The notes: generated from the sequence alone by a model not told the origin. DNA of 64,000 nucleotides from Patescibacteria group bacterium (GCA_041664365.1 JBAYKW010000001.1:7168-71167); one strand, 5' to 3'. Positions 44,680 to 57,237 are shown, counted from the first letter of the stretch. Program-made: numbers and translations.

Positions 44680-44732
44680 TTCGTAATCGGTAAGTGGTAA
44701 TTCGTAATTTGTAATTAGTAATTGGTAATATA
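44680..44732. repeat. GTAAT-word low-complexity spacer (inverted relative to 49190-49250)
   Basis: ttcgtaatcggtaagtggtaattcgtaatttgtaattagtaattggtaat. Confidence 0.35.
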
Positions 44733-45548
44733 ATGAATCATTGGATCAATAAGCTGGATAAACCGTTAATGATGCCGATTGTCAGGCGCGAAAAAGAAAA
44801 CGAGAATGTAGACACATTTTATTTTAAACATGCTTTGAATTCGCAGGCTGGCCAGTTTGTTATGCTTTGGATTCCGGGACTGGATGAGAAGCCTTTCAGC
44901 ATTGCGTACGACACCGGTGATGAACTGGGTCTGGCAATTGCAAAGGTTGGTCCGTTTACTGAAGAGCTTTTTAAACTGAAAGTCGGGGACCGTGTTGGAA
45001 TCCGCGGGCCATATGGTCATGGTTTCTGGAAAGAGGCCGGGGCCAAAAAAGTAGTAATGGTTGGCGGTGGATACGGCGTAGCACCATTATTAAACATGGC
45101 GGAAGAACTGGTTAAAGACGGCGTTGAAATCCATTTTATCAACGGCGCCAGGTCAAAAGACCTGCTGTTGTTTCAGGATCGCATTAACAGTTTAAAGGCA
45201 AAAATTTATACAACAACCAATGACGGATCATTTGGTATTGAAGGTATGGTTACAGTTCCCTTGCAGGAAATTATAGCCAAGGAGAAAATCGATCTGGTTT
45301 ATACCTGCGGACCGGAATTGATGGAGAAGGCGGTGTTCGATTTTTGTGAAATATCCAATATTAATTGTCAGATCAGCATTGAACGCTATATGAAATGCGG
45401 TATGGGTGTTTGTGGTGCCTGCTCTGTGGACGGTACTGGTGAGCCGATGTGTGTAAAAGGTCCGGTGGTTGATTCGGAAAGAGCGAGGTTGATTTCAGAG
45501 TTTGGAAAATTTCACCGGAATGGATCCGGAGTGAAAAAGGATTTTTAG
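44733..45548 (+). CDS. pyrK: dihydroorotate dehydrogenase electron-transfer subunit
   Basis: FAD/NAD-binding fold plus C-terminal [2Fe-2S] Cys cluster CGMGVCGACSV. Confidence 0.8.
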   Translation: MNHWINKLDKPLMMPIVRREKENENVDTFYFKHALNSQAGQFVMLWIPGLDEKPFSIAYDTGDELGLAIAKVGPFTEELFKLKVGDRVGIRGPYGHGFWKEAGAKKVVMVGGGYGVAPLLNMAEELVKDGVEIHFINGARSKDLLLFQDRINSLKAKIYTTTNDGSFGIEGMVTVPLQEIIAKEKIDLVYTCGPELMEKAVFDFCEISNINCQISIERYMKCGMGVCGACSVDGTGEPMCVKGPVVDSERARLISEFGKFHRNGSGVKKDF

Positions 45549-45549
45549 T

Positions 45550-46836
45550 ATGAATATTACGCTGAAGAATTGCATTTTGGAATCGGCAGAGACGGATGTT
45601 CATATCTCAGATGGCATTATAAGTAAAATTGGCAAAGGTGCGGAAGGGGAAATAATCGACTGTTCCGGTCTTGTTTTACTTCCCGGTTTGATTGACGGTC
45701 ATGTACATTTTCGTGAACCGGGTGCAGAACATAAAGAAGACTGGCTCACCGGATCGCGCGCGGCGGTCAAAGGGGGCGTCACTACAGTTCTGGATATGCC
45801 GAACAACAACCCGCCGATTATTGACGAAGCGTCTTTACGATTAAAAAGAGCAAAAGCAGAAAAAAGCGTGATTAATTACGGTTTTCATATTGGAGCCACA
45901 ACCGGCAATCTGGATTTTATTAATTCCGCTGAAAATATTGCCGCAGTAAAAATATATTTCGGCTCATCTACCGGTGATCTCTTGGTGGACAAAATGGCCG
46001 ATGTGGAAAAAATATTTGAAGGAAGCAAAAGACTGTTTCTCGTCCACGCTGAAGATGAAGCTTTTATTCAGGAAAAGAACAAAGAATACAGCGGGACGGA
46101 TGACCCGATGATCCATACCAAGGTTAGGGCGCCGGAAGCTGCAATACTAGCAGTCAAAAATATCTTAGCCATTGTTGAACGGACCAAAGCGCGCGTGCAT
46201 TTTTGCCACGTCAGTACGGCGGGCGAATTGAAACTGATCAAATCAGCCAAAGCCAAAGGCCTGCCCGTCACCTGCGAAGTCGCACCACACCATTTATTCT
46301 TGAACAGCAGTGAATACGGCAAACAAGGTAACTGGGTGAAAATGAACCCGCCGCTCAGACCGGAGTCGGATCGATTGGCACTGTGGCGCGGGCTTTTCGA
46401 CGGCACAGTTGATACCATCGCTACCGATCACGCGCCACATACTAGAGAAGAAAAAGAACAGCCCTATTGGCAGGCGCCGGCCGGTGTTCCGGGGGTGGAA
46501 ACTATGTTACCATTACTACTGAACGAGGTGAGTAAAGGCAGAATTGATTTAAAAAAAGTAATTCAATTAACCTGCGAAAATCCCGCTCGAATATTTAAAA
46601 TTAAGCATAAAGGAAAAATTGAAGAAGGGTATGATGCGGATTTGGTTTTAGTAGATATGCAGATGGAAAAAGAAGTGATCAATGAAGAAATGGAGTCCAA
46701 ATGCGCCTGGACCCCGTTTGCCGGGAAGATCCTGACCGGCTGGCCGGTCGCGACGATGGTCGGTGGAAATATCGTTTACAATTCTTTGGAAATTAACGAA
46801 CAATTTAAAGGTAAGGAGATAAATTATGAGTTATAA
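45550..46836 (+). CDS. pyrC: dihydroorotase
   Basis: Amidohydrolase motif DGHVHFREPG. Confidence 0.85.
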   Translation: MNITLKNCILESAETDVHISDGIISKIGKGAEGEIIDCSGLVLLPGLIDGHVHFREPGAEHKEDWLTGSRAAVKGGVTTVLDMPNNNPPIIDEASLRLKRAKAEKSVINYGFHIGATTGNLDFINSAENIAAVKIYFGSSTGDLLVDKMADVEKIFEGSKRLFLVHAEDEAFIQEKNKEYSGTDDPMIHTKVRAPEAAILAVKNILAIVERTKARVHFCHVSTAGELKLIKSAKAKGLPVTCEVAPHHLFLNSSEYGKQGNWVKMNPPLRPESDRLALWRGLFDGTVDTIATDHAPHTREEKEQPYWQAPAGVPGVETMLPLLLNEVSKGRIDLKKVIQLTCENPARIFKIKHKGKIEEGYDADLVLVDMQMEKEVINEEMESKCAWTPFAGKILTGWPVATMVGGNIVYNSLEINEQFKGKEINYEL

Positions 46837-47500
46837 GAAAGATTTTATAGAATTTCTAGTGCGATCAGAAGCTTTGAAGTTTGGCGAATTTACCTTAAAA
46901 AGCGGACGAATTTCACCGTATTTTTTCACTACCGGCAATTTTAATACCGGATCGTCTATTTATAAACTGGGATATTTCTATGCTGCGCTGATCCGTGAGG
47001 AAGTGGTGGATTTTGACGTGATCTTCGGACCAGCCTACAAAGGAATCCCGCTGGCAGTCGCCACGTCCATGGCGCTGGCTAAAGATTTCGGCATGGATAA
47101 AGGATACCTTTTTGATCGGAAAGAGGTAAAAGATTACGGCGATAAAAGTGCGTTTGTCGGTTATGAACCTACACCTGGGCAAAAGATTATTTTGATTGAT
47201 GATGTAATGACAACCGGAAAGACCAAGGAAGATGCTGTAAATATAATCAAAGAAAAATTTGAAAATGTCAGTTTCGCGGGACTGGTTATTGCATTCAACC
47301 GCCAGGAAAAAGACAATGACGGCAATGATGCGCTTTTGGAATTTGAAAAATCATTCGATATTCCGGTAAAAGCAATTGTGACAGTCAGAGAGGTAATTGA
47401 CGTTCTACACAACCAGAAAATTGACGGGCAAATTTACCTGGATGACGCAACTAAAGATAGAATGGAAGAATACCTTGCCAGGTATGGTGTTTCTCAGTAA
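46826..47500 (+). CDS. pyrE: orotate phosphoribosyltransferase
   Basis: PRPP-binding motif ILIDDVMTTGKT. Confidence 0.85.
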   Translation: MSYKKDFIEFLVRSEALKFGEFTLKSGRISPYFFTTGNFNTGSSIYKLGYFYAALIREEVVDFDVIFGPAYKGIPLAVATSMALAKDFGMDKGYLFDRKEVKDYGDKSAFVGYEPTPGQKIILIDDVMTTGKTKEDAVNIIKEKFENVSFAGLVIAFNRQEKDNDGNDALLEFEKSFDIPVKAIVTVREVIDVLHNQKIDGQIYLDDATKDRMEEYLARYGVSQ

Positions 47501-47527
47501 AATAGCGGTAATAATTTATCAAAAAAT

Positions 47528-48316
47528 ATGAACAGCGAACCATCATTTCCGAATGATCAAGATCGCGAGCAGTCAGCGGAGATGCCGAGGGAAATAGAAA
47601 CAAAAATTGTAAATTTAGGTGATCCGGAAGAATTTAAAAAACGCCTATTGGATCTGGGCGCTGTACTTGTTGATGGCAGGCGTCTTTTACAGGACCGCAG
47701 TTTTAAGCGGGAAAAAGATAAACAAGTGGATAGTACCGACCTTCCTTTTAATACCGCCGAGGTTAAAGACCCGACCGATTTACAGAATGTTCTGGAGCTG
47801 TTGGGAGTAGATATTGTCTCTGAGCCGGATGAGAGTGGAGTTATGATGATTCGTACACGTGCAGGCGCTCCTGTCCGTATGGTGCGTTTAAGAAAAGAAA
47901 ATGATACGACAGTCCTGACAATCAAGGAAAAAAGAAATAAAGCACAGACAGTGGATAATCGGATGGAAACCGAGGTGGAATTGATTGATGAAAATTCGCT
48001 GAATCAATTATTGGCATCAATGAGGTATTCGCATTTGGCTGATAAGGAAAAATACCGGACAACATACGGATTAGACGGATGTAAGGTTGAATTAAACGAG
48101 GGTCCGATTGGAGCGCCTTGGGCGGAGATTGAAGCGGGAAGTGAAGAACAGGTTATAGCGCTTGCCAATGCGCTGGGTTATCAGCCGGAAGATTTGGCCG
48201 GTATGTCGGATGCGGATTATTATGCACTTAAAGTTCCTGATCTTACACCAGAGGAACTTAATAACATGACTTTTGCCAAAATGAAAGACAGGGCACCAAA
48301 AGACCAACCGGAATAA
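47528..48316 (+). CDS. CYTH-domain (triphosphate tunnel metalloenzyme) protein
   Basis: N-terminal EIETKI (ExExK signature). 262 aa. Embedded between pyrE and pyrF. Confidence 0.5.
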   Translation: MNSEPSFPNDQDREQSAEMPREIETKIVNLGDPEEFKKRLLDLGAVLVDGRRLLQDRSFKREKDKQVDSTDLPFNTAEVKDPTDLQNVLELLGVDIVSEPDESGVMMIRTRAGAPVRMVRLRKENDTTVLTIKEKRNKAQTVDNRMETEVELIDENSLNQLLASMRYSHLADKEKYRTTYGLDGCKVELNEGPIGAPWAEIEAGSEEQVIALANALGYQPEDLAGMSDADYYALKVPDLTPEELNNMTFAKMKDRAPKDQPE

Positions 48317-48329
48317 TTAATATCACACT

Positions 48330-49139
48330 ATGAATAAACAAAATCAAACATACCTTCAAAGGGCAGAAAAAGCGAAAAACCCGGTGGCTGTAAAATTACT
48401 CCAGCTCATGGGGCAGAAACAAACCAACCTCGCGCTGGCGGTGGATGAGCCGGAGGCCGATTTGGTTTTAAAACTGGCGGACACTATCGGACCGGAGCTT
48501 TGCCTGTTAAAAACGCATATAGACATCATTGAGGGTTTTAACGAGGGATTTATCACAGAATTATCAAACCTCGCTAAAAAGCACAATTTTTTAATCTTTG
48601 AGGACCGGAAATTCGCTGATATCGGCAATACAGTCAAAATGCAGTATGGCGGGGGGATGTATAAAATAGTGGAATGGTCTGATATGGTAAATGCGCATAT
48701 TGTCCCGGGTCCCGGAATTATTGAAGGGCTAAAGGAAGTGGCTGAGGCAAGCGGAAAGGAGCGGGCATTAATCCTGCTGGCACAGATGAGTTCCAAAGGA
48801 AATCTGGCGACGGACGAATATACCGAAAAGGCGGTAAGGATGGCGCGCGAGTACGCTGATTTTGTGATCGGATTTATCGGGAACGGGGGAGATGTGAAAG
48901 AACTGAGCAAACTGACTGGACTAAACAGTGAAGAGTTTATTATAATGACTCCGGGTGTTAAACTGGGTGGCGGGGATGATGCGCTGAAACAGCAATACAC
49001 CACACCATCCGATGTAATAACCGCCGGTTCTGATATCATCATTGTCGGACGGGGGATTTACGGCGCGGACGATCCGGTTGCGGAAGCCAAGGAGTACAGA
49101 CAAGTCGCGTGGGACGCATATTTGAAAAGAATTGGATAG
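48330..49139 (+). CDS. pyrF: orotidine 5'-phosphate decarboxylase
   Basis: TIM-barrel OMP decarboxylase, type 2. 269 aa. Confidence 0.8.
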   Translation: MNKQNQTYLQRAEKAKNPVAVKLLQLMGQKQTNLALAVDEPEADLVLKLADTIGPELCLLKTHIDIIEGFNEGFITELSNLAKKHNFLIFEDRKFADIGNTVKMQYGGGMYKIVEWSDMVNAHIVPGPGIIEGLKEVAEASGKERALILLAQMSSKGNLATDEYTEKAVRMAREYADFVIGFIGNGGDVKELSKLTGLNSEEFIIMTPGVKLGGGDDALKQQYTTPSDVITAGSDIIIVGRGIYGADDPVAEAKEYRQVAWDAYLKRIG

Positions 49140-49189
49140 AAACTAGTCCGATGCATTTACGGAGTAAATGCCCGGGCGCAATGGTTACA

Positions 49190-49250
49190 TATAAATACCA
49201 CTTACGAATTACAAATTACCAATTACTAACTTACTAATTACCAAACCCAA
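49190..49250. repeat. GTAAT-word low-complexity spacer, inverted copy (reads attac… on + strand)
   Basis: Its reverse complement gggtttggtaattagtaagttagtaattggtaatttgtaattcgtaagtgg shares words with 44680-44732. Confidence 0.35.
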
Positions 49251-50186
49251 ATGAGACACTGTCTTACTCTAAAAGACTATTCCAAAGAGGATATCCTGGA
49301 AATAATCCGCAAGGCGCAGGAGATCAAAGCCAATCCGGAAAGATACGGGGATGTTTTGAAAAACAAAACACTAATCATGCTGTTCCAGAAGACATCCACC
49401 CGCACACGTCTATCCTTTGAAGCCGGCATGACTCAGCTGGGCGGACATGCGATATTTTTGGACAGCCGGACATCTCAGTTCGCATTAACCGATTATAAAG
49501 ACGAGATCCAGGCGGTGATGCGTTTTGGTGATGTGCTGATGTTCCGGGCAAAATCCTTTAATGACGTAAATATTGCCGCATCCCTCAACAAAATTCCGGT
49601 CATCGATGCCTGTTCCGAGAAATACCATCCTTGCCAGTCACTGGGAGATCTCTTGACCATGGTGGAACACAGCGGGGGAATTGAAAATATCAAAAAAGTA
49701 ACTTGGCTCGGCATTGAAAACAATGTCAGCAACACACTGAAACTGGTCTGCGCCAAACTGGGGATCGATATCTATCTGGCGGCACCAAAGGTACACGAAA
49801 TCAGCGTTGATGAAGAGCTAAACCAAATGGCAGAAGCAACCGGGAAGGTACACAAAACTGTGGATATGGAAGAAGCAATGAAAGATACGGATTACGTTCA
49901 CACCGACACCTGGATGGATATGGAATTTTTTGAAGACGGCAAAGTGAAGCCGGAATTTCAAGCGGAATATGAGAAGAGAATAGAAGAATTCAAGCCGTTC
50001 CAGCTCAATGCCGGAATCGTGGATAAATACAGCCCCAAGGTCGGAATTATGCACTGTATGCCGTGCCATGTCGGCTATGAGATATCACGTGACGCTATTG
50101 ATCATCCCAACTCCATAATTTTTGATCAGGCGGAAAACAGGATGCATATTCAAAAAGCCATCATTTTGTGGCTCATGGGGAAATAG
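49251..50186 (+). CDS. ornithine carbamoyltransferase-like protein (OTC/ArgF family)
   Basis: Motifs STRTRLSFE, HPCQ and HCMP, closer to OTC than to ATCase (pyrB is separate at 42385). Confidence 0.7.
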   Translation: MRHCLTLKDYSKEDILEIIRKAQEIKANPERYGDVLKNKTLIMLFQKTSTRTRLSFEAGMTQLGGHAIFLDSRTSQFALTDYKDEIQAVMRFGDVLMFRAKSFNDVNIAASLNKIPVIDACSEKYHPCQSLGDLLTMVEHSGGIENIKKVTWLGIENNVSNTLKLVCAKLGIDIYLAAPKVHEISVDEELNQMAEATGKVHKTVDMEEAMKDTDYVHTDTWMDMEFFEDGKVKPEFQAEYEKRIEEFKPFQLNAGIVDKYSPKVGIMHCMPCHVGYEISRDAIDHPNSIIFDQAENRMHIQKAIILWLMGK

Positions 50187-50203
50187 ATAAAAACCTTATT
50201 TCA

Positions 50204-50240
50204 CAAAACAGGCTCTGAATATTTCAGGGCTTGTTTTTTG
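50204..50240 (+). terminator. intrinsic terminator (caggctctgaa-tat-ttcagggcttg + T6)
   Basis: Stem with G·U pairs that forms only on the + strand, then TTTTTT. Confidence 0.55.
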
Positions 50241-50577
50241 TTTAAGTGTGTAATTCGGAGACCCACAAAAAGTAATGGATTCTCGGATCGCCTCCGATGT
50301 CGGTGTCCAAAAAACCTCCCCCGGAAATTATTTCTCAATCTAAGAACCCGACACGTCCTTCCCCTCCTTATCAAGGAGGGGAGCAGATTATTGTTACTAT
50401 TTTAAAATCATGTTCCGGAGGGGTGGTAAACCCAAGGGTAATTTACGGCAATCCCGTTCCTATGTTATTGCCATTCTGAACTTGTTTCAGAATCCATTAT
50501 TGCTATGGAACCGGAGATGCTGAAACTAGTTCAGCATGGCAGAATAATAACGGAATTCCTTTCAATGGGTACTGTTT

Positions 50578-50904
50578 TTATGTTAATAGACGATATAGCT
50601 CCAGCAAGCAATCTGAGTTGCGATTGAGATAAAGTGTCTTTGATCCCTTGGTAACATTTGGAAATCTTATTGATGATAATCTGTCGAACTCTTCATCACT
50701 AAGCTCGGTGTCGGTTATCTCCAGACCATTTTCCTCTGCCAGTTGTTTGATCGCTTCGGCCTGCTCGATAGATAGACCGACCAACAGGATTTTGCCGTTA
50801 ATCGATGCGGTTTGTGATTTGATAAAATCCAGAGAGGGGATAGTATCATGAGTATCGGTTGACTCACTAATATCAAGACTCGGGTTCATGTCCAGTGTTT
50901 TCAT
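50578..50904 (-). CDS. acidic hypothetical protein (108 aa)
   Basis: AT-rich ORF on the - strand inside the duplication-flanked insert. No domain recognised. Confidence 0.45.
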   Translation of the reverse strand: MKTLDMNPSLDISESTDTHDTIPSLDFIKSQTASINGKILLVGLSIEQAEAIKQLAEENGLEITDTELSDEEFDRLSSIRFPNVTKGSKTLYLNRNSDCLLELYRLLT

Positions 50905-51020
50905 AGAAGATTGTTATGAATTATTGTATTAGATAGTTATTTAATTTCAGCAATTATTTGCACAACATTATCTTAACATTACGATTCAGGTAAAGCAATC
51001 TGAATGTGGCCAAAATGCAG

Positions 51021-51047
51021 TTGACACATTTTAGTCGGTATTATAAT
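51021..51047 (+). promoter_or_regulatory. TTGACA-N15-TATAAT promoter for RidA gene
   Basis: TTGACA at 51021-51026, TATAAT at 51042-51047. GGGAGG RBS at 51099-51104. Confidence 0.45.
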
Positions 51048-51110
51048 ATTGCTAACCGTTCGCGCCTGTATTTGCAGGCATTTGCTGTGTCCGCAATCCG
51101 GGAGGTTACA

Positions 51111-51506
51111 ATGCCCAAGAAACAGAAGCCCGCGGGGATCCTCGCGATGGAGAGTGTCGGTCAGCCGTTTTCGACCTGCGTGCAGATCGGCAACCACTTC
51201 CACTTCTCCGGCACGGTCGGCCGGGTCGTCGACGGCAGGGTCGTCGGTGATCTCGAAGAGCAGATCGAGGAGATCTTCACCAAGATGGATAGCATGCTGG
51301 GCGTCTGCGAACTGTACCCCGACGATGTCTTCAGCGCCACGATCCTGCTGGCCGGCGACATGTCGGGCTACGGTCTCGTCAACACGAGCTGGAATCTGTT
51401 CTTCCGGTCCGCGGAGATCATGCCCCGTCGCAAGGCCTACGCCGTGAGCGCGCTGCCCTTCGACGCGCTGATCGAGATCGAGTTCGACGCGGTCAAGCAG
51501 GACTGA
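51111..51506 (+). CDS. RidA/YjgF/L-PSP family protein (GC-rich)
   Basis: Start at the ATG following GGGAGGTTACA. C-terminal AYAVSALPFDALIEIE resembles the RidA signature. The track's overlapping ORFs (51006, 51049) are alternative frames in GC-rich DNA. Confidence 0.7.
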   Translation: MPKKQKPAGILAMESVGQPFSTCVQIGNHFHFSGTVGRVVDGRVVGDLEEQIEEIFTKMDSMLGVCELYPDDVFSATILLAGDMSGYGLVNTSWNLFFRSAEIMPRRKAYAVSALPFDALIEIEFDAVKQD

Positions 51507-51534
51507 ACGCCCAAGCGGAACAAGCTGTACACAA

Positions 51535-51566
51535 GAGGATTCCATCCGGGGTCCTCATTTTTTATT
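51535..51566 (+). terminator. hairpin gaggattcc-atcc-ggggtcctc + ATTTTTTATT
   Basis: 9-bp stem with 2 G·U pairs, then a T6 tract. Confidence 0.5.
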
Positions 51567-51568
51567 AT

Positions 51569-51657
51569 AAAAAGCCATCATTTTGTGGCTCATGGGGAAA
51601 TAGGATAATAATCTTTACAACAAAACAGGCTCTGAATGTTTCAGGGCTTGTTTTAGA
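51569..51657 (+). repeat. direct duplicate of 50152-50240 (last 11 codons of the OTC-like gene plus its terminator)
   Basis: aaaagccatcattttgtggctcatggggaaatag is identical in both copies. The terminators acaaaacaggctctgaat(a/g)tttcagggcttgtttt are near-identical. The 16-nt spacer between has diverged. Confidence 0.7.
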
Positions 51658-51676
51658 TTTTTAGGTTTATTAGAAA

Positions 51677-52993
51677 TCAGCAACCATTGCGAGTACTACG
51701 AATGTAGGACGATGCAATCCTGATACTTTTTGACTTAAGTGCATTATCCCTAGGATCTTTTTTTGTCTCACCTTTTTTATTAATATTCTTATAATTTGTA
51801 AGACTTTCTGTAAATGTCGGCATTCCAATTTTAACTAGGGTATCTTTAGTTACATCACCATTAGTAGGCTTAAGTCCATATTTTTTTAATACTTTCTTTA
51901 TTACCGATTGAAGGCTATCGTCTAAAACAGAGTAATGTGATTTTTCATAATTAGTATAATAGTATGTTGCTCCCCAATTATCAACTCGAGTTTTCAGATA
52001 GTTGAGTGTTTTAAATAGACCATTTCTGTTTACTATTTTTATATCTTTAATAATTTTCTTAAATGCATTTGGCACAGGATATATTTTACTGCCTCGGAAT
52101 TTGATTCCAAGAAATTCAAAATCACTTCTCTCTATAGTGCAATACTTGTTATTATCCTTTGGTTTACTTATTGATAATGGATGTAATTTAAGTCGTAGTT
52201 TGTTCTCAATAATTTCTTTAGCAACTTTATGCATTTTTACTGCCTCTTCTTTTGTCTTGCACATAATAATAAAATCGTCTGCATAACGTACCATTTTATA
52301 ATTATGTTTTATCATTATCTCATCTAGTGGGTATAAATAAATGTTTGCAAATAATGGTGAAAGTATCCCTCCTTGAGGTATTCCGCCCTCTTTTGTCACG
52401 AAATTATCATATTCTCCAATTAAAATAAGATCATTCTTGTTACCTATCTCATTAATCAATGCACCTTCAATCAACTTATTTATTGATTTATCAGGTAAAC
52501 AAGGAAAAACATAATTATTTAGTAGATTAGAGACATCTATAGTATCAAAAAATTTTCTAATATCTGCATTATACACCCATTCATAACCGTGTTTTTTATA
52601 AAGTACAATTCTATCAACAGCATCTTTAACACGCTTTTTTTTAATGTATGCAAAACTTACAGGATTATCAATGTTATATCTTACTTTGATATAGTCAAAA
52701 ATTACAAGTTCAATTGCTTTTTGAACAACTCTGTCACGAACTGCGGGTATTTTGATAGCTCTAGTTTTCGATCCTTTCTTTAAAGGATAGCCTCTTAATG
52801 CTAAAAATTTGTATTTATTGTTAAGTAGATCTTTTCTAATAAAATTAAGCTGATTTTTTAAGTCATTTTCGAAATCCTCTATTGTCTGATTATCAATGCC
52901 TTTAGATTTATCTCTATGCTTTATTGAATCCCAAGAAAGTCGCAAATTATTTTGAGTTGCGACTTTTTTAAGTAGATTATTCGTTTTTTTCAT
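51677..52993 (-). CDS. group II intron-type reverse transcriptase/maturase (no endonuclease domain)
   Basis: RT motifs TRAIKIPAVRDRVVQKA, GIPQGGILSPLFANIYL and RYADDFIIMC (YADD). Maturase X-like NWGATYYYTN. 438 aa. Confidence 0.75.
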   Translation of the reverse strand: MKKTNNLLKKVATQNNLRLSWDSIKHRDKSKGIDNQTIEDFENDLKNQLNFIRKDLLNNKYKFLALRGYPLKKGSKTRAIKIPAVRDRVVQKAIELVIFDYIKVRYNIDNPVSFAYIKKKRVKDAVDRIVLYKKHGYEWVYNADIRKFFDTIDVSNLLNNYVFPCLPDKSINKLIEGALINEIGNKNDLILIGEYDNFVTKEGGIPQGGILSPLFANIYLYPLDEIMIKHNYKMVRYADDFIIMCKTKEEAVKMHKVAKEIIENKLRLKLHPLSISKPKDNNKYCTIERSDFEFLGIKFRGSKIYPVPNAFKKIIKDIKIVNRNGLFKTLNYLKTRVDNWGATYYYTNYEKSHYSVLDDSLQSVIKKVLKKYGLKPTNGDVTKDTLVKIGMPTFTESLTNYKNINKKGETKKDPRDNALKSKSIRIASSYIRSTRNGC

Positions 52994-53052
52994 AATTAGT
53001 ACCCCTAAGCTCTCCGGCTGGTCTGCACCAGTGTAACCTGCTTTTAAGGATA

Positions 53053-53215
53053 TAGTGCAGTCTTAGAGTTGGTAACATTCAGGCTGATGGTTATAACCAT
53101 TAACATTATTGTCAGCATTCTGAGACTTAAGCTACTTAGTACCTTGTAGATTGAATTATACCGATTCATCGTGAATTGGCAAATATTGTCTATTTTGGTG
53201 TTTAAATAAGCAGCT
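53053..53215. repeat. tandem direct repeat copy A (~158 bp)
   Basis: Differs from copy B at only 3 positions (tta/atg and a/g). Confidence 0.7.
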
Positions 53216-53372
53216 AAATTTACTCGGCCGCCGATATCCGCCAAAATGCTATCGGCTTCCGGCGCTATTTTTCGCCATTCCATGTTCTTTGCTGTTAATA
53301 ATAATTCTTGTTCCGCCAATCCGGAGGCTTGGGCGCTACAATTAGCGGTTCCAGAATAAAGCAAGTTACATG

Positions 53373-53535
53373 CAGTCTTAGAGTTGGTAACATTCAGGCT
53401 GATGGTTATAACCATTAACATTATTGTCAGCATTCTGAGACTTAAGCTACTTAGTACCTTGTAGATTGAAATGTACCGATTCGTCGTGAATTGGCAAATA
53501 TTGTCTATTTTGGTGTTTAATAGCATATACAAAAT
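53373..53535. repeat. tandem direct repeat copy B (~158 bp)
   Basis: Near-identical to 53053-53215. A 157-bp more GC-rich spacer separates the copies. Confidence 0.7.
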
Positions 53536-53656
53536 AACATAGAATATAGTTTTGTCAACTCCATTAGTATACTAATCGATATCAATCCGTGATCATAGAA
53601 TCGAGAATAACCAAAACAACGCATTTAGAAATTATTGATAATAACTATTTTTCGTT

Positions 53657-54091
53657 CTAGCAATCCTTCTTCTCATCTTTTTCCGACTGCGCCAGTAAAT
53701 ACTCCAAGACCTTGTATTCCGAAAGTTCTTCTACATTCGACTTTTTAATTAATCTATCGAAGTATAAAACTAAAAACAAAACAATGAAGAGTGATATAGT
53801 AACATACCAATTCATAGAATGAATGACTTCATTCAAAGCATTTAATAGTAAACTACCAGTTATACCTAGAGCGAATCCAAATGTAACTGATACCAACGTT
53901 TGTCTATCTTGTTTGATATTATTCAAAGCATTTTGCAATCCGATATTTTCTATATCAAAAGCTGCTATGTATTTTTCAACTACAGCATTTTGTTGATTAG
54001 CCGAAAGTTTCTGCCACAACTTCTTATTGGAGCGCTTTAGTCTTTTAGTAATTTCTTTCCTAAGGTCATTTTCCCTCTTTTGTAAATTCAT
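53657..54091 (-). CDS. small membrane protein (2 TM), last gene of defence-like operon
   Basis: 144 aa with a charged N-terminal half and two hydrophobic helices. Confidence 0.45.
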   Translation of the reverse strand: MNLQKRENDLRKEITKRLKRSNKKLWQKLSANQQNAVVEKYIAAFDIENIGLQNALNNIKQDRQTLVSVTFGFALGITGSLLLNALNEVIHSMNWYVTISLFIVLFLVLYFDRLIKKSNVEELSEYKVLEYLLAQSEKDEKKDC

Positions 54092-54100
54092 AATGATAAT

Positions 54101-54646
54101 CTAATTTTTAATTTTCTTCGCGATCCATGCTCCGCCCCCAATAAGTATTCCTAAGCCTACAGCCCAATCCGTGAATGATCCTGAATTGTTTGACGAATTA
54201 GTGCTTGCAGAATTTGTCGGGGTAATCTGATTTGCTAAAGTCGCTGCACCTTTTACTTCGCCTTGATCATCAGTTTGTACAGAAGCCTCATCAAGTTCTC
54301 TTTGTAAATTTTCTTTTTCTTCTTCCAGTCTTTTGATTTCCGTTTGCTGATTTTCGTACTCAGTTTTGGCATTTGAATAATCAGCGTAAGAATAATATGT
54401 CCTACCATTAAATTCATAGGTTATTGGTGTTGGGGCGGTGTATGTTTCTGCCTCTTCTTCTGTTCCATTACATTCTGGATAATATGGCGCACATGTAGCG
54501 GATAATGGCGTGCCATCACAACAACCACAACCACATACCCCATCATGATGTGAACAGCATCCACTTCTTGCATCTGCATTATATTGTGGCAATAACAAAA
54601 ACAACCCAAATATGAAGATACTTAGGATATAATGCACTTTTTTCAT
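54101..54646 (-). CDS. secreted Cys-rich, coiled-coil protein with C-terminal membrane anchor
   Basis: Signal peptide; CCSHHDGVCGCGCCDG…C…C; EIKRLEEEKENLQRELDEA coiled coil; C-terminal hydrophobic GLGILIGGGAWIAKKI. Confidence 0.45.
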   Translation of the reverse strand: MKKVHYILSIFIFGLFLLLPQYNADARSGCCSHHDGVCGCGCCDGTPLSATCAPYYPECNGTEEEAETYTAPTPITYEFNGRTYYSYADYSNAKTEYENQQTEIKRLEEEKENLQRELDEASVQTDDQGEVKGAATLANQITPTNSASTNSSNNSGSFTDWAVGLGILIGGGAWIAKKIKN

Positions 54647-54789
54647 TGTGATTTGCCCAATAGTTAGCTATATTTCAACACTACTCCAACTTATCCTAGA
54701 AATCAAGAAAACCGCTTTTGGAGGATGCTTAATTAACCTCTGTACAGACACAATATTTCTGTTTAGGAACCATCATGTAGTAATCTGTG

Positions 54790-55761
54790 TCAAATCAATC
54801 TACTAACAGAAAAACCGTCTACTTTTTTCGTGCTCTTGTTTATTTTAATACTTATATTTTTAACTACACTTGGAAGTATTTCATCAACAGATTTATCAAG
54901 ATTTATTGAATCACCTGAACAGGTAATACTAATTGCAATGCTACAATTCACATACACGTAATAGTACTTTTCATCAGCTTTATATATATAATAATTCCAT
55001 ATAAATACATCATTGTATTCATGATCAACAATATTTTCAAGTTGTATATTTCTGTCTATATTAACTGCGAAGAATAATTCTTCAGGGTATACAAGATTAT
55101 TTATATCATTTAATCCTATCTCCTCAATCATCAGCGATAAGTATTGCTCATTAATAAATTCTATCTTTTCAGCATAATCTGTTAAAAATTTATCTAATAA
55201 ATTATAAAAATAAACATCAGATTCTTTTCTTAATTCTTCATGTAACTCATCTGAATCACCAAAAGCATTTCTATCATTTGAGATAAAACATAAATCATTA
55301 CATTTATTGCGAGCAAATTTAACTTCCTCCCATATTATGAAATCTCGAAATCCAATGTCACTATACTTTTTAGTAGAGTGGAAAGGAGGTTTATTATTTA
55401 ATGATCTACTTATAATTTGTGGGACTAGTACAGGACAGCTTAAATTATCAATAATCTCTATATTCTTATTTTCTACTATCTTTAGCAACCTTTTTTTGTA
55501 TCCAGTTACTTCATTATTTTTAAGCGTAATTTCGCTTGATGTAGATATTTTCAATTTCTTTTTGAATTCTTTCAATGACTTTTCTATATCTTTACAGTCA
55601 TCAATTTCTTTACTGAAGTTTTTTATTGTTTCAGATATCACAATGTCAGGAATAAATAGTTTCGATTTAGTTTTTTTTAAATACGCAAATAATGCTTGGA
55701 ATCTTGGAGTATCAAGATAGTAATTATCTTTTAATTCAGTTGAATCAAGAATTATATTCAT
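54790..55761 (-). CDS. PIN-like (DUF4935-type) domain protein
   Basis: Conserved acidic positions in MNIILDSTEL, IPDIVISETIKNF, IGFRDFIIWEEV and CFISNDRN fit a PIN-like nuclease fold. 323 aa. Confidence 0.4.
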   Translation of the reverse strand: MNIILDSTELKDNYYLDTPRFQALFAYLKKTKSKLFIPDIVISETIKNFSKEIDDCKDIEKSLKEFKKKLKISTSSEITLKNNEVTGYKKRLLKIVENKNIEIIDNLSCPVLVPQIISRSLNNKPPFHSTKKYSDIGFRDFIIWEEVKFARNKCNDLCFISNDRNAFGDSDELHEELRKESDVYFYNLLDKFLTDYAEKIEFINEQYLSLMIEEIGLNDINNLVYPEELFFAVNIDRNIQLENIVDHEYNDVFIWNYYIYKADEKYYYVYVNCSIAISITCSGDSINLDKSVDEILPSVVKNISIKINKSTKKVDGFSVSRLI

Positions 55762-55781
55762 TAAAATATTATTAAATTATA

Positions 55782-56888
55782 CTAAATTTGGGAGAATCCC
55801 AAATCCTTTCCAATTGGCTTGAGCACCCCATCATTTACAGTTGCAATACCAAGATCTAGCGAATTAATAAACTGTATGTATTTATCATCACGCGGTTCAC
55901 GAGAAGGTGTAAGTATTTTGTATTGATCACTGAATTTAAGATTTTTTTCTTTTTTAAATTTGTTAATCTCAAAATAGTCATATTCATATAATTGAACAAT
56001 TGCTTTCCTTGCCTGTGATCTAAAATTTCTATTTTCAGTACTTTTTACTTCAAATAAGAATGAGCGTTTTTCATCATGTGCAAATAAATCAACAAATTCA
56101 TTTGATAAGGTTGCATATCCTTTTTTTCTAAAAATATCGATTAGATTTTGCAAAACTGAATAGTGGGATGATTCTGCCCTCGCAAGAATCTCATTATCTC
56201 TTGTTATTATAGAATGTGGCTTAGTGATAATTCTTTCATTAATTTCATTTATAAACCTTAATGACGCTGCGTGACGCAGTGTCTCAGTCGCATTATGTAC
56301 TTCATAAAAATCAGATGGCTTATCCTGTATAATATTTCCTCTTGTTGAGTGTCCAGAATATAAATATAATGATCTCTGTCTGAATAATATTTGTTTCGCA
56401 ACCTCTGGTGAAACTTTTGAGAAACTACCCATTCGTGGGAAGCCTTCTATTTCCGATACTGGTATTGAGTTTTCAACCAGTTTATCAATTAAATGAGCTG
56501 TCTGTTCATTATTATTTGGATTAGGGGATTCCCAAGTTGCTGGATCGGGTATTTCACCAAATAAATATATTTCTGTTAGTGGAACTAATAATGGCCATCT
56601 ATTTTCATTATGTTTAACTTCGTAATGCCATAAATAATTATCTTTAATTGAAAAATGAAACCCAACGACCCCTATTCCTATAATCCCGGATTTTGCATTT
56701 CGAAATGCAGAGTTATTTGAGCCAGTACTATGGATAAAAAAGATATCACCAGTCTGTATTTTCCCCCATCTTTCCTTTAAATGTGATTCCAATCCCCATG
56801 TCATGTACTTAAAAGCAGTCAGCCAATGCTCAGGTGGACCTGTAAATCTAAATAATTGTTTTGTGCTTATAGCTGAACTTAAATTCAT
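55782..56888 (-). CDS. PUA-like (EVE/ASCH-type) domain fused to PD-(D/E)xK nuclease - candidate modification-dependent restriction enzyme
   Basis: Start taken at MNLSSAIS (overlaps the MazG stop as TAAtATG). N-terminus FRFTGPPEHWLTAFKYMTWGLES…GDIFFIHSTG…IIGIGVV is PUA-like. C-terminus FVDLFAHDEKRSFLFEVKST…QLYEY carries a D…EVK nuclease motif. Confidence 0.45.
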   Translation of the reverse strand: MNLSSAISTKQLFRFTGPPEHWLTAFKYMTWGLESHLKERWGKIQTGDIFFIHSTGSNNSAFRNAKSGIIGIGVVGFHFSIKDNYLWHYEVKHNENRWPLLVPLTEIYLFGEIPDPATWESPNPNNNEQTAHLIDKLVENSIPVSEIEGFPRMGSFSKVSPEVAKQILFRQRSLYLYSGHSTRGNIIQDKPSDFYEVHNATETLRHAASLRFINEINERIITKPHSIITRDNEILARAESSHYSVLQNLIDIFRKKGYATLSNEFVDLFAHDEKRSFLFEVKSTENRNFRSQARKAIVQLYEYDYFEINKFKKEKNLKFSDQYKILTPSREPRDDKYIQFINSLDLGIATVNDGVLKPIGKDLGFSQI

Positions 56889-56889
56889 A

Positions 56890-57237
56890 TTACAAATTTG
56901 TATATTTTGTGTGTTTACCCTTTGCTTTGTCAATTGGATACTTTTCTTCATTCTTTTTAATCTTTTTCTCAAGCGCTTCTTCAATATCAATATTCAAATC
57001 ATTACTCATTAATAGCACCCAGTATAAAACATCCGCCAACTCTTCTCCAATATCCGATTTGTTTGTATCAATATATTTTTTTATCTCTTCATCATTCTTC
57101 CATTGGAAATGTTCCATAACTTCTCCTGCCTCAAGCATAAGCGATAATGCGACGTCTTTTGGATTGTGAAATTGTTTCCAATCTCGGGCATCCCTGAAAG
57201 CAATTACTTGTTTTATTAATTCTTCAATATTTTTCAT
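56890..57237 (-). CDS. MazG-like nucleotide pyrophosphohydrolase
   Basis: Motifs RDARDWKQFH…LMLEAGEVMEHF…EELADVLYWVLLMSNDLNID. Confidence 0.65.
   Translation of the reverse strand: MKNIEELIKQVIAFRDARDWKQFHNPKDVALSLMLEAGEVMEHFQWKNDEEIKKYIDTNKSDIGEELADVLYWVLLMSNDLNIDIEEALEKKIKKNEEKYPIDKAKGKHTKYTNL

What the first reader, a model, noticed from the sequence alone, without database searches (positions are those of the whole stretch)
51657..53650. Group II intron-type RT/maturase with unusual surroundings: no visible domain V, adjacent 158-bp tandem repeat
The 438-aa RT has the group II RT0-7 and X-domain signatures but no En domain. I could not find a GUGYG 5' end or a 34-nt AGC/GNRA domain V in the flanks. 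Immediately 5' of the ORF (- strand sense) a 158-bp segment is tandemly duplicated with only 3 mismatches. A small hydrophobic ORF (MEWRKIAPEADSILADIGG…, 53283 downwards) runs from the inter-copy spacer into copy A. This could be a degenerate or novel-class intron, or an RT domesticated into another system.
Basis: partly seen in the sequence, partly recalled or inferred. Interest (0 to 1): 0.55.

Follow-up and report, generated by a model that had tools for sequence, protein, structure and literature searches.

The report
Intron-less reverse transcriptase with repeat-flanked membrane-protein gene
A reverse transcriptase of the group II intron type, without any intron RNA, sits behind a small membrane-protein gene whose first ~155 bases are repeated almost exactly just before the enzyme gene; the layout recurs in distantly related bacteria and appears undescribed, so it may be a new RNA-to-DNA copying system.

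Summary
The RT (51677-52993, - strand, 438 aa, YADD) is a full group II intron-type RT by sequence and predicted structure. It has no En domain, and no intron ribozyme was detected, although control loci scored positive. The "158-bp tandem repeat" is really two copies of 155/157 nt (53371-53525 and 53056-53212) separated by a 158-nt spacer.

The layout recurs in 11 independent loci whose RTs are only 31-54% identical (Patescibacteria, Bacteroidota, other MAGs). The repeat sequence differs between loci but is 97-100% identical within each. Concerted evolution is directly visible: sister loci differ by substitutions and an in-frame indel that both copies carry.

- Copy 1 starts 5-17 nt after a promoter-like site.
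- Copy 2 ends 51-95 nt before the RT start.
- A sense ORF (basic stretch, hydrophobic helix, hydrophilic spacer) is stop-free over a whole repeat+spacer unit in 8/11 loci.
- Unit length is a multiple of 3 in 9/11.

Best reading (about 0.35): a domesticated RT that copies this terminally redundant mRNA and transfers between the repeats, making multimeric or circular cDNA that extends the ORF (Neo-like). Rivals are an antisense or gene-conversion cDNA, or a 2-TM gene unrelated to the RT. It is not an ordinary intron, DGR, retron, DRT2 or DRT10.

The parts
53531..53558 (-). Promoter-like site P1 (TTGACA-16-TATTTT, TG before the -10). The -10 ends 5 nt before copy 1 and before the in-frame ATG at 53526.
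   Evidence: (10/12 match). Equivalent sites end 5-17 nt before copy 1 in L001, L084, L086, L005 and L007; -10-only boxes occur in L085, L087, L208 and L210. No transcript data, so the start site is inferred.
53371..53525 (-). It begins at the predicted transcript and ORF start and encodes a polar stretch plus the hydrophobic segment LSLRMLTIMLMVITISL.
53213..53370 (-). Spacer, 158 nt, GC 0.46 against 0.35 in the repeats. It encodes the hydrophilic middle of the ORF and contains the internal ATG at 53283.
53056..53212 (-). It differs from copy 1 by 3 substitutions and two 1-nt indels and ends 62 nt before the RT ATG.
53044..53526 (-). Sense ORF of 160 aa from the ATG at 53526 (162 aa from the TTG at 53532). 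It runs through copy 1, the spacer and copy 2 in one frame, and its stop lies 9 nt after copy 2. Predicted product: hydrophobic helix, hydrophilic linker, hydrophobic helix.
   Evidence: Only 8 of 2000 shuffles of the unit have any open frame. The only database match is itself (P0121).
53155..53182 (-). Promoter-like site inside copy 2 (TTGCCA-16-TATAAT, 11/12). The same place in copy 1 reads TACATT (9/12), so two of the three copy-specific substitutions make a perfect -10. This is a candidate promoter for the RT.
   Evidence: L084 shows an analogous copy-2-specific CAGAAT>CATAAT change.
52994..53055 (-). 62-nt leader between copy 2 and the RT start. It folds into an inner hairpin (CUGGU-GCAG-ACCAG), with the pyrimidine stretch AUAUCCUUAA pairing with the G-rich UUAGGGGUA that is presumed to be the ribosome-binding site. 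Possible RT-binding or priming site, or a translational control element.
   Evidence: Similar nested folds occur in L001, L205, L084 and L085, but z-scores are weak and no consensus structure came from the alignment.
51677..52993 (-). Reverse transcriptase, 438 aa: group II intron-type fingers, palm, thumb (X) and C-terminal helices. YADD is intact and there is no En domain.
51622..51654 (.). Terminator-like palindromic hairpin 23 nt after the RT stop codon; probable 3' end of the unit.

Best explanation

Proposed organisation:
- A promoter fires at the 5' edge of repeat copy 1.
- The transcript is both an mRNA and the RT's template. As an mRNA it encodes a small membrane protein: a basic stretch and hydrophobic helix from the repeat, and a hydrophilic linker from the spacer.
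- Copy 2 repeats the first ~155 nt of that RNA and ends ~60 nt before the RT start codon.

Proposed mechanism:
1. The RT starts cDNA synthesis in or near the structured leader 3' of copy 2.
2. It copies copy 2, the spacer and copy 1, and runs off at the RNA 5' end.
3. The cDNA 3' end, complementary to copy 1, re-anneals to copy 2 of the same or another RNA, as in retroviral R-region strand transfer.
4. Repeated rounds give longer-than-unit, concatemeric or circularisable cDNA.
5. Because the repeat+spacer unit is a multiple of 3 and stop-free, such DNA carries an extended or endless ORF of alternating hydrophobic and hydrophilic modules. This would be a toxic membrane effector, analogous to DRT2 Neo, probably for abortive infection or element competition.
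6. The same cDNA, recombining with the chromosome, keeps the two copies identical.

Shown computationally: RT class and intactness; absence of a ribozyme; conservation of the architecture; concerted evolution; the coding nature and in-frame unit of the ORF; positions of promoter-like sites.

Inferred: the transcript ends, that the RT uses this RNA, the strand transfer, the multimeric cDNA, toxicity, and a defence role.
For: 1. RT class. The RT is of the group II intron type and catalytically intact, and no intron RNA was found (3, 11, 52).

2. Conserved architecture. A near-identical direct-repeat pair lies immediately upstream of the RT in 11 independent loci. Their RTs are 31-54% identical to one another. 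No such pair next to the RT start was seen in the ~75 other group II-type RT loci fetched by the same scan.

3. Concerted evolution.
- L087 and L206 (RTs 95% identical) differ by one repeat substitution, and it is present in both copies of each locus.
- P0123 carries many substitutions and a 3-codon insertion relative to L087, in both copies.
- L084 and L085 share a homologous ORF at about 40% aa identity, with RTs 53% identical. Within each locus the two copies are still 97% identical.

4. Position of the repeat edges. Copy 1 begins 5-17 nt after promoter-like sites in at least 10 loci, so the repeat's 5' edge is about the RNA 5' end. Copy 2 ends 51-95 nt before the RT start.

5. Coding unit.
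- A sense frame is open over a full unit in 8/11 loci, against 0/11 for antisense frames. Per locus, 0-0.65% of shuffles have any open frame.
- Unit length is a multiple of 3 in 9/11 loci (P=0.0014).
- The indels between L087 and P0123 are in frame.
- These are the same criteria used to infer neo in DRT2.

6. Copy 2 can be disabled. It carries nonsense or frameshift changes in L084, L085 and L001 while copy 1 plus spacer stay open. That is expected if copy 2 is a landing pad and not essential coding sequence.

7. Template switching. The closest structural relatives include the GsI-IIC RT template-switching complex 7k9y.

8. Genomic context. The locus sits in a low-GC island with a PIN-domain gene in the window. 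Other members sit next to R-M genes, in a conjugative element, or in a phage-like contig.
Against: - There are no transcript or cDNA data. Promoters and start codons are consensus matches only.
- Three of 11 loci break the endless-ORF rule: L005 has a unit of 335 nt and stops, L051 has two stops in the spacer, and L205 has a unit of 359 nt and a stop before copy 2.
- The ORF is on the sense strand and is already translatable from the chromosome. cDNA synthesis would therefore not gate expression as it does in DRT2, where neo is antisense to the ncRNA.
- P1 lies outside the unit. An internal promoter is plausible only in some loci, namely WIN, L087 and L205.
- No conserved RNA structure could be demonstrated for a priming site.
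- Codon-position analysis of L084 against L085 was inconclusive.
- RecA-mediated gene conversion could also homogenise the repeats.
- Loci with a single repeat or none exist (L210, L006, L004).
Confidence: 0.35

Rival explanations
1. RT plus small membrane effector, with a short trans-acting cDNA. The RT starts at the leader 3' of copy 2 on an RNA that begins at copy 2 and runs off at its 5' end. The product is a single-stranded DNA of repeat length, antisense to the repeat. This DNA pairs with copy 1, that is, with the 5' end and start region of the effector mRNA. It would then silence or unmask translation (antitoxin-like, compare the type VI retron hyRNA), or serve as the donor that converts copy 1.
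For: - It explains both sharp repeat edges: the cDNA start site, and the RNA 5' end.
- It explains the need for nucleotide identity.
- It explains tolerance of stops, frameshifts or out-of-frame placement in copy 2 (L084, L085, L001, L005, L205).
- Promoter-like sites lie just before or inside copy 2 in L087, WIN, L084 and L205.
- Precedent exists for an RNA that is both RT template and toxin mRNA.
- RT plus transmembrane effector is a common defence design.
Against: - It gives no reason for the unit to be a multiple of 3 in 9/11 loci, or for the ORF to stay open through the whole spacer into copy 2 in 8/11.
- A cDNA made from copy 2 would pair with copy 2 itself, so a second copy is not obviously needed.
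- There are no cDNA data.
Confidence: 0.25
2. The RT is functionally unrelated to the repeats. The ORF is an ordinary two-helix membrane protein gene with an internal duplication, kept homogeneous by host RecA gene conversion. The RT is a general-purpose G2L enzyme (for example DNA repair, like G2L4), or it acts with the membrane protein without using its RNA.
For: - G2L4 RT is the top structural match.
- In 5 loci the ORF reads through both copies to a stop just after copy 2, giving a helix-linker-helix protein.
- Gene conversion between short repeats is known in bacteria (general knowledge).
Against: - The repeat pair co-occurs with this RT clade across phyla at a fixed position relative to the RT start, while all other neighbours vary.
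- Protein function does not require nucleotide identity.
- The C-terminal copy is truncated or out of frame in 6/11 loci.
- Direct repeats 160-300 nt apart should be lost rapidly by deletion unless selected; L210 is such a deletion.
- G2L4's diagnostic YIDD is YADD here.
Confidence: 0.15
3. Non-mutagenic or weakly mutagenic DGR-like retrohoming. Copy 2 acts as a template repeat next to the RT. Its cDNA overwrites copy 1, which acts as a variable repeat in the target ORF.
For: - The layout of repeat, spacer, repeat, short structured region and RT resembles VR-TR-Sp-RT (layout; the DGR organisation from general knowledge).
- Sequence information demonstrably moves between the copies.
- DGR RTs are structural relatives (8ub7, E 1e-12).
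Against: - The 25 differences between copies are not adenine-specific in either direction or on either strand.
- Several loci are 100% identical.
- Copy 1 is at the 5' end of the ORF, not the 3' end.
- No Avd-like gene is present.
- The RT is much closer to group II and G2L RTs (22-24% id, E 1e-20) than to the DGR RT (17% id).
- Copying without diversification has no obvious benefit.
Confidence: 0.1
4. A degenerate or new-class group II intron. The repeats would be duplicated exon or intron-end sequence.
For: The RT is of the group II intron type with a thumb/X region.
Against: - There is no domain V or D1-D4 signal even at E<=10 in the window.
- There is none at gathering score in 10 related loci, while control introns were found.
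- The RT ORF is not embedded in any conserved non-coding RNA. Only 23 nt separate its stop from a terminator-like hairpin.
- The upstream region is protein-coding.
- The neighbourhood is similar in three Patescibacteria-type loci, near pyrF and pheST, which suggests long residence and not mobility.
Confidence: 0.03

Closest known systems
Free-standing group II intron-like RTs (G2L3-G2L5; G2L4 of Pseudomonas aeruginosa is the characterised one)
   Same: - Group II intron-type RT with fingers, palm and thumb, and no associated ribozyme.
- G2L4 RT is the best structural match (9d4s, E 1.2e-20, TM 0.68-0.72).
   Different: - G2L4 has YIDD and works in double-strand break repair without a dedicated cis-encoded template (abstracts). 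This RT has YADD and an obligatory upstream repeat-bearing ORF.
- By sequence it is nearer to intron RTs (4e-25) than to G2L4 (6e-19).
- Assignment to G2L3 or G2L5 could not be tested because no reference sequences were available.
DRT2 (UG2 RT plus ncRNA; rolling-circle reverse transcription making the neo gene)
   Same: - The RT has a cis-encoded template immediately upstream.
- The unit length is divisible by 3 and one frame is stop-free across the unit.
- Sequence repeated at both ends of the template could guide template jumping.
   Different: - The RT family differs: Drt2 model 58 bits against a cut-off of 390; DRT2 structure ranks 46th at 15% id.
- The homology is 92-234 nt instead of a 3-nt ACA motif.
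- The unit is 282-474 nt against ~120 nt.
- The ORF is sense to the RNA and already present in the chromosome.
- The product is hydrophobic.
- No cDNA evidence exists here.
Diversity-generating retroelements (TR/VR plus RT)
   Same: - Two near-identical ~100-200-nt repeats, one directly upstream of the RT and one inside an ORF.
- Sequence is transferred between them.
   Different: - No adenine-specific differences.
- The ORF copy is at the 5' end.
- No Avd gene.
- The RT is not of the DGR clade.
Type VI retron hybrid RNA (hyRNA)
   Same: One transcript would serve both as the RT template and as the mRNA of a small toxic protein.
   Different: - The RT is not of the retron clade (retron model 61 bits against a cut-off of 235).
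- No flanking inverted-repeat pair of the msr/msd type was found.
- The repeats here are direct.
DRT10 / UG17 (ncRNA plus SLATT plus RT; telomerase-like 7-nt repeat synthesis)
   Same: - The PADLOC UG17 model matches partially (4e-40).
- An RT is paired with a transmembrane protein.
- The window has a 2-TM protein just upstream (53657-54091).
   Different: - The UG17 match is weaker than the group II model and covers only the RT core.
- The 144-aa protein has no SLATT hit and is not conserved in other loci.
- The gene order and the ncRNA position differ.
Retroviral and pararetroviral terminal redundancy (R regions, strong-stop strand transfer)
   Same: A direct repeat begins at the RNA 5' end and recurs downstream, which is the geometry that lets a run-off cDNA re-anneal and continue (the retroviral mechanism is general knowledge).
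   Different: - The repeats flank only a 160-300-nt spacer, not the RT gene.
- There is no integrase, LTR or primer-binding site.
- This is an analogy only.

Membership tests
Mobile group II intron | RT/maturase with RT0-7 and a thumb/X domain | tested here: met
   - TIGR04416 matches 2-351 of 353 model positions (196 bits, below the 300-bit equivalog cut-off).
- PDB phmmer puts group II intron RTs on top.
- Foldseek TM is ~0.7 to GsI-IIC RT.
Mobile group II intron | Ribozyme RNA (domains I-VI, catalytic domain V) surrounding the ORF | tested here: not met
   - No Rfam hit at gathering score in the window.
- No group II family hit at E<=10 in 50500-54800.
- Controls L008 and L010 gave Intron_gpII and D1-D4 hits.
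Mobile group II intron | Exon junction with IBS/EBS pairing; splicing | not testable with these tools
   This needs RNA-seq or RT-PCR, and no ribozyme is present to define the boundaries.
G2L (free-standing group II intron-like RT) | Group II-type RT without an associated intron RNA | tested here: met
   definition taken from PMC2602772.
G2L4 subclass | YIDD instead of YADD at the active site | tested here: not met
   The sequence reads VRYADDF. G2L4 chains score 6e-19 against 4e-25 for intron RTs.
CRISPR-associated RT (G2L1/G2L2) | Fusion to or adjacency with Cas1, and a CRISPR array | tested here: not met
   - The RT is 438 aa with RVT_1 as its only domain.
- The five neighbouring ORFs submitted to PADLOC gave no hits, so no cas-type gene was found among them.
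- No short-period array was found in 50000-55500.
- The Cas1_IIIb HMM matches only through its RT part.
DGR | TR/VR pair whose differences fall at adenines of the TR | tested here: not met
   There are 25 differences in 10 loci with no adenine specificity in either direction. Two loci are 100% identical.
DGR | DGR-clade RT and an Avd accessory protein | tested here: not met
   DGR RT 8ub7 ranks 32nd (17% id, E 1e-12) behind the group II and G2L RTs. No conserved accessory gene is present in the loci.
DRT2 (Neo) | UG2-family RT | tested here: not met
   NF041746 Drt2 scores 58 bits against a cut-off of 390, over the palm region only. DRT2 structure 9c0i ranks 46th.
DRT2 (Neo) | Template unit divisible by 3 with one stop-free frame across the junction | tested here: inconclusive
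   The unit is divisible by 3 in 9/11 loci and a frame is open in 8/11. The frame is on the strand sense to the RNA, whereas neo is antisense, and three loci fail.
DRT2 (Neo) | Concatemeric cDNA made by template jumping, with a promoter formed at the junction | not testable with these tools
   This needs cDNA or long-read sequencing. Promoter-like sites near the spacer-to-repeat junction are seen only in some loci.
Retron | Retron-clade RT with msr/msd flanked by inverted repeats | tested here: not met
   The retron St85 model scores 61 bits against a cut-off of 235. No flanking inverted-repeat pair of that kind appeared in 51000-54500. Retron RTs rank 44th or lower.
DRT10 / UG17 | UG17 RT tightly coupled to a SLATT protein, with an upstream ~137-nt ncRNA | tested here: not met
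   - The UG17 HMM gives a partial match of 136 bits.
- The 144-aa upstream 2-TM protein has no Pfam or PADLOC hit.
- That protein has no counterpart in L001.
- The DRT10 architecture is described.

The most novel reading that the evidence does not exclude
A second, independent invention of gene synthesis by reverse transcription. A group II intron-derived RT would use a terminally redundant mRNA, with a 92-234-nt R-like repeat at the RNA 5' end and again before the RT gene. From it the RT would build multimeric or circular cDNA whose in-frame units encode an open-ended chain of transmembrane modules. The same cDNA would continually rewrite the chromosomal repeats. If so, Neo-type de novo gene assembly is not confined to UG2/DRT2. 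It would also exist in the intron-RT lineage, including in ultra-small Patescibacteria.
Probability: 0.3. Interest if true: 0.9.

Novelty: new variant of a known kind. Interest (0 to 1): 0.75.

Why it matters
- **An open question becomes testable.** Free-standing group II intron-like RTs have been catalogued since 2008, and most still have no known function. Here one deep clade (RTs only 31-54% identical, from Patescibacteria to Bacteroidota) gets a conserved, testable partner: a repeat-bearing small membrane-protein gene under concerted evolution.

- **If the RT copies this RNA**, the system would join DGRs, retrons, DRT2, DRT9 and DRT10 as another way bacteria use templated DNA synthesis. 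It could be a second case of RT-built repetitive genes, or a new cDNA-controlled toxin.

- **Possible tool.** It would offer a compact, intron-type (processive, template-switching) RT with a natural homology-guided strand-transfer substrate.

- **Even the most conservative reading is unusual.** An RT-linked gene whose two ends are kept identical at the nucleotide level is uncommon and is not described in the literature I could search.

- **A cultured host exists** (Mucilaginibacter galii CCM 8711, L005), so experiments are feasible.

Tried and rejected
- **Group II intron.** Rejected: no ribozyme hits, with positive controls.
- **Tandem repeat.** Rejected: TRF finds no array, and the copies are 313-315 nt apart.
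- **DGR.** Rejected as a member: the differences between copies are not adenine-specific.
- **CRISPR-like 'repeat-spacer-repeat' from a recent spacer insertion.** Rejected. Spacers are inherited (L087/L206 99% identical; L084/L085 homologous) while both repeat copies change together. The spacer is also coding and in frame.
- **Assembly artefact.** Rejected: the pair appears in 11 independent assemblies from different sources, some with copy-specific differences.
- **144-aa upstream 2-TM protein as a SLATT partner (DRT10-like).** Not supported.
- **Conserved RNA structure in the copy-2-to-RT leader.** The alignment gave no consensus structure, and single folds have weak z-scores.
- **Codon-position test, L084 against L085.** Inconclusive at 77/54/73.
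- **5' bias of copy differences.** 13/6/6 by thirds, not significant.
- **Homologues of the ORF proteins.** The window ORF has none. The L087 ORF has two relatives, which proved useful. Pfam finds nothing meaningful.
- **Searches for more members that failed.**
  - The viral-contig scan gave only RTs at or below 32% identity.
  - A clade-specific degenerate DNA pattern in metagenome contigs returned 37 chance hits and no RT.
  - The plasmid and phage collections hold only true introns or nothing.
- **Literature.** Searches found no description of this architecture. Subscription journals are not covered.
Full report
**The observation**

The - strand ORF at 51677-52993 encodes a 438-aa protein.
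- It matches Pfam RVT_1 (1.5e-28).
- It aligns end to end with the NCBIfam group II intron RT/maturase model (positions 2-351 of 353). The score of 196 bits is below the 300-bit equivalog cut-off.
- The catalytic motif is RYADDF. No endonuclease domain is detected.

Against solved structures, the best sequence matches are group II intron RTs (5hhl, 7uim and 6ar1, ~1e-25 to 1e-22). Next come Cas6-RT-Cas1 and then G2L4 RT.

An AlphaFold2 model built on 30 homologues (pLDDT 88.5) was compared with the PDB.
- It superposes best on G2L4 RT and the GsI-IIC intron RT (E ~1e-20, TM ~0.7, 22-24% identity).
- DRT9 (9e-14), the DGR RT (1e-12), retron RTs (~5e-10) and DRT2 (2e-9) lie well behind.

Rfam finds nothing at gathering score in the whole window. 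It finds no group II family even at E<=10 in 50500-54800. The same tool found domain V and D1-D4 in two control loci with true introns, L008 and L010.

**The repeat**

The repeat is not tandem. Tandem Repeats Finder reports no such array.
- Two copies lie at 53371-53525 (155 nt) and 53056-53212 (157 nt).
- A 158-nt, GC-richer spacer separates them.
- They differ by three substitutions and two 1-nt indels near the 5' end.
- A 50-nt core occurs exactly twice in the 64-kb window, and in none of 100 shuffles.

A sense ORF runs through copy 1, the spacer and copy 2 in one frame (53044-53526 from an ATG, or -53532 from a TTG).

**The architecture is conserved**

The RT has a family of 33-50%-identical homologues that carry RVT_1 only; the window's own protein is annotated as coming from a Patescibacteria MAG. 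I fetched their loci and ran self-comparisons. Eleven independent loci show a near-identical direct-repeat pair just upstream of the RT.

| Locus | Repeat length (nt) | Unit, start to start (nt) |
|---|---|---|
| WIN (this window) | 155/157 | 315 |
| L001 | 163 | 354 |
| L005 (Mucilaginibacter galii) | 92 | 335 |
| L007 | 234 | 474 |
| L051 | 112 | 363 |
| L084 | 158 | 384 |
| L085 | 164 | 381 |
| L086 | 112 | 345 |
| L087 (= L206) | 100 | 282 |
| L208 | 109 | 360 |
| L205 | at least 55, cut by the contig end | 359 |

- These RTs are only 31-54% identical to one another.
- The repeats of distant loci are unrelated in sequence.
- Within each locus the copies are 97-100% identical.
- Copy 2 always ends 51-95 nt before the RT start, mostly 59-66 nt.
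- None of the ~75 other group II-type RT loci from the same genome scan has such a pair next to the RT start.
- The repeat-bearing loci have no intron RNA.
- All other neighbours differ between loci, so the minimal module is promoter, repeat, spacer, repeat, RT.

**Concerted evolution is directly visible**

- L087 and L206 have RTs 95% identical. They differ by a single substitution in the repeat (CCAATGAT against CCAGTGAT), and each locus carries its variant in both copies.
- P0123 is a 69%-identical relative of the L087 ORF. It carries many substitutions and a 3-codon insertion relative to L087, again in both copies. It also has a 6-codon in-frame indel in the spacer.
- L084 and L085 have RTs 53% identical. 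Their ORF proteins are homologous but only about 40% identical, yet within each locus the two copies are 97% identical.

This rules out a recent duplication in each lineage. It also rules out a CRISPR-like repeat duplication at spacer insertion.

L210, a 75%-identical relative of L087, has a single copy and no spacer. That is what recombination between the two copies would leave behind. L006 looks similar: a 54-aa basic and hydrophobic ORF ends 35 nt before the RT.

**The unit is coding**

- One sense frame is free of stops over a complete repeat+spacer unit in 8 of 11 loci. No antisense frame is open in any locus.
- Per locus, only 0-0.65% of shuffles have any open frame.
- Unit length over the bulk of the repeat is a multiple of 3 in 9 of 11 loci (P=0.0014). 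The two exceptions are both 2 mod 3.
- Gene callers independently predicted these ORFs in L001, L084-L087 and L206.
- In every locus except the truncated L205, the repeat encodes a hydrophobic 17-mer, usually preceded by basic residues. The Kyte-Doolittle 17-residue mean is 1.3 in L005 and above 1.7 in the other nine. The spacer is hydrophilic.
- The ORF evolves about as fast as the RT (69% against 75% identity for the L087 and L210-type lineages) and only by in-frame indels.
- It has no Pfam domain. The window's version has no detectable homologue.

**Edges of the repeat**

Promoter-like sites end just before copy 1.

| Loci | Site | Distance to copy 1 |
|---|---|---|
| WIN, L001 (perfect TTGACA-17-TATAAT), L084, L086 | sigma-70-like | 5-13 nt |
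| L005, L007 | Bacteroidota-type TAnnTTTG box | 13-17 nt |
| L085, L087, L208, and the solo locus L210 | -10-only box | |

In the window the -10 ends at 53531 and an in-frame ATG sits at 53526, which would give a leaderless or nearly leaderless mRNA. L001 has a GTG at the edge that reads GCG in copy 2. P0124 starts at an ATG four codons before the repeat. So the repeat's 5' edge is roughly both the transcript start and the ORF start. This is inferred; there are no transcript data.

Some copy-2-specific changes look functional.
- In the window, two of the three substitutions turn TACATT into a perfect TATAAT preceded by TTGCCA-16 (53155-53182).
- In L084, a copy-2 change turns CAGAAT into CATAAT.
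- In L084, L085 and L001, copy 2 carries a nonsense codon or a frameshift while copy 1 and the spacer remain open.

A terminator-like hairpin follows the RT stop codon.

**How it most likely works**

Five facts need explaining together:
1. nucleotide-level identity of two copies, maintained over long times beside an RT;
2. a repeat that starts at the RNA 5' end and recurs ~60 nt before the RT gene;
3. an in-frame, stop-free unit;
4. tolerance of disabling changes in copy 2 only;
5. an RT of the class best known for template switching.

*Preferred model (about 0.35).* The transcript is both the mRNA and the RT's template, and the repeats act like retroviral R regions. A cDNA that runs off at the RNA 5' end re-anneals to copy 2 and is extended again. 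This gives multimeric or circularisable DNA whose units keep the reading frame. The result would be a Neo-like, open-ended chain of membrane-helix modules, acting as a toxic effector. The same cDNA would homogenise the chromosomal copies.

Divisibility by three and a stop-free frame across the unit are the same criteria used to recognise neo in DRT2.

Weaknesses:
- Three loci break the rule (L005, L051, L205).
- The ORF is sense and already translatable from the chromosome, so cDNA synthesis would change dosage or length, not gate expression.
- P1 lies outside the unit.
- No priming structure could be shown.
- Nothing has been measured.

*Rivals.*
- **Trans-acting cDNA (about 0.25).** A repeat-length antisense cDNA made from copy 2 would act on the 5' end of the effector mRNA or gene. 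This resembles the type VI retron hyRNA. It explains the edges and the dispensability of copy 2 for coding, but not the in-frame unit.
- **RT-independent 2-TM gene homogenised by RecA (about 0.15).** This does not explain the fixed linkage to the RT or the need for identity.
- **DGR-like retrohoming without mutagenesis (about 0.1).** This fails the adenine test.
- **Intron (about 0.03).**

**Comparison with known systems**

By sequence and fold the RT belongs with group II intron and G2L RTs. As an intron-less, free-standing enzyme it fits the G2L definition. It is not G2L4 (YADD, not YIDD).

It is not a member of the following:
- DGR: RT clade, adenine rule, Avd and VR position all fail.
- DRT2: the UG2 model scores 58 against 390 bits.
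- Retrons: 61 against 235 bits, and no flanking inverted-repeat pair of the msr/msd type was found.
- DRT10/UG17: partial HMM match, and no conserved SLATT partner.

What it may work like is DRT2 or the type VI retron hyRNA. That is analogy, not membership.

I found no paper describing this arrangement. The searchable library lacks most subscription journals.

**Context**

In the window the module lies in a ~7-kb low-GC island (26-38% GC against ~45% in the flanks). The island sits between the pyrimidine operon (pyrD-pyrK-pyrC-pyrE-?-pyrF-pyrB, 43762-50186) and miaA, miaB and thrS. It also holds a PIN_12 protein and several unknown ORFs.

Other members lie in these contexts:
- next to restriction-modification genes (L087, L206, L210);
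- in a conjugative element (L086);
- in a phage-like contig (L003);
- beside insertion sequences (L208).

Three Patescibacteria-type loci (WIN, L001, L205) lie near pyrF and/or pheST. This mix is compatible with a defence or conflict role, but nothing more can be said.

**Verdict**

The intron reading is rejected. The domestication reading is supported and can be made more specific: a conserved RT plus repeat-flanked membrane-ORF module under concerted evolution. The mechanism is inferred. The module appears undescribed and is readily testable.

Noticed in passing
window 51006-51506 (+), overlapping 50979-51545 (-): A 58%-GC segment sits inside the 26-38%-GC island. It encodes a RidA/YjgF-like protein (Ribonuc_L-PSP, 1.5e-15) and lies between the RT terminator and the pyr operon. 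The composition is foreign to the rest of the window, which suggests horizontal transfer or an assembly chimera.
   Followed up: no
window 53657-54091 (-): A 144-aa protein directly upstream of promoter P1 has a charged N-terminal half and two hydrophobic segments (residues ~64-83 and ~88-115). The topology is SLATT-like, but there is no Pfam, PADLOC or NCBIfam hit and no counterpart in L001.
   Followed up: partly
window 54101-56990 (-): The rest of the island holds three ORFs. One is a 181-aa Cys-rich protein (CCSHHDGVCGCGCCDG) with a signal-like N terminus, a coiled coil and a C-terminal anchor. One is a 323-aa PIN_12 domain protein (2.9e-21). One is a 402-aa protein with no family hit. They may be toxin-antitoxin or defence genes.
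   Followed up: no
L210 2840-3001 (JGI 3300037311): This locus has a single repeat. A TGCTATAAT promoter is followed by one copy homologous to the L087 repeat, then the conserved leader, then the RT. There is no spacer. P0123 shows that two-copy relatives of this same repeat variant exist, so L210 is a deletion derivative.
   Followed up: yes
L006 3802-3966 (Pedobacter sp. Hv1); L004: These two sister RTs (35-36% identical) have no repeat pair. L006 has a 54-aa basic and hydrophobic ORF ending 35 nt before the RT, like a solo copy. L004 has no obvious equivalent.
   Followed up: partly
L084 3393-3934 and L085 3390-3934: Both loci keep the same difference between copy 1 and copy 2 (TTTAAGC against TTTACGC, Lys against Thr), although everything else in the repeats has diverged between the loci and been homogenised within them. 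Each copy 2 also has its own nonsense codon. This suggests selection on specific copy-2 differences.
   Followed up: partly
L001, L084, L085, L087: 12-28 nt upstream of copy 2: A shared motif AAATATGG(A/T) contains an in-frame ATG. It is preceded by a purine-rich Shine-Dalgarno-like stretch in L084 (GAGGAG) and L087 (GGGGGA). It could be an internal start codon present once per unit.
   Followed up: partly
L087 5324-5830 and L210 4290-4841: A 168/183-aa protein of unknown function directly downstream of the RT is conserved between these two loci (34% identity, 1e-23). It is replaced by a serine recombinase in L206. It may be an accessory gene in that subclade, or just local synteny.
   Followed up: partly
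L205, L209, L207, L003, L002: Many contigs carrying clade RTs stop inside or just after the repeat, 90-180 nt upstream of the RT. This is expected if assemblers break at the repeat loop. Copy number therefore cannot be read from short-read assemblies.
   Followed up: no
window 43762-50186; L001 1-3486; L205 2551-4731: The three Patescibacteria-type members lie near pyrF (OMP decarboxylase) and/or pheS-pheT, in different orientations. This suggests long residence in one chromosomal neighbourhood.
   Followed up: no
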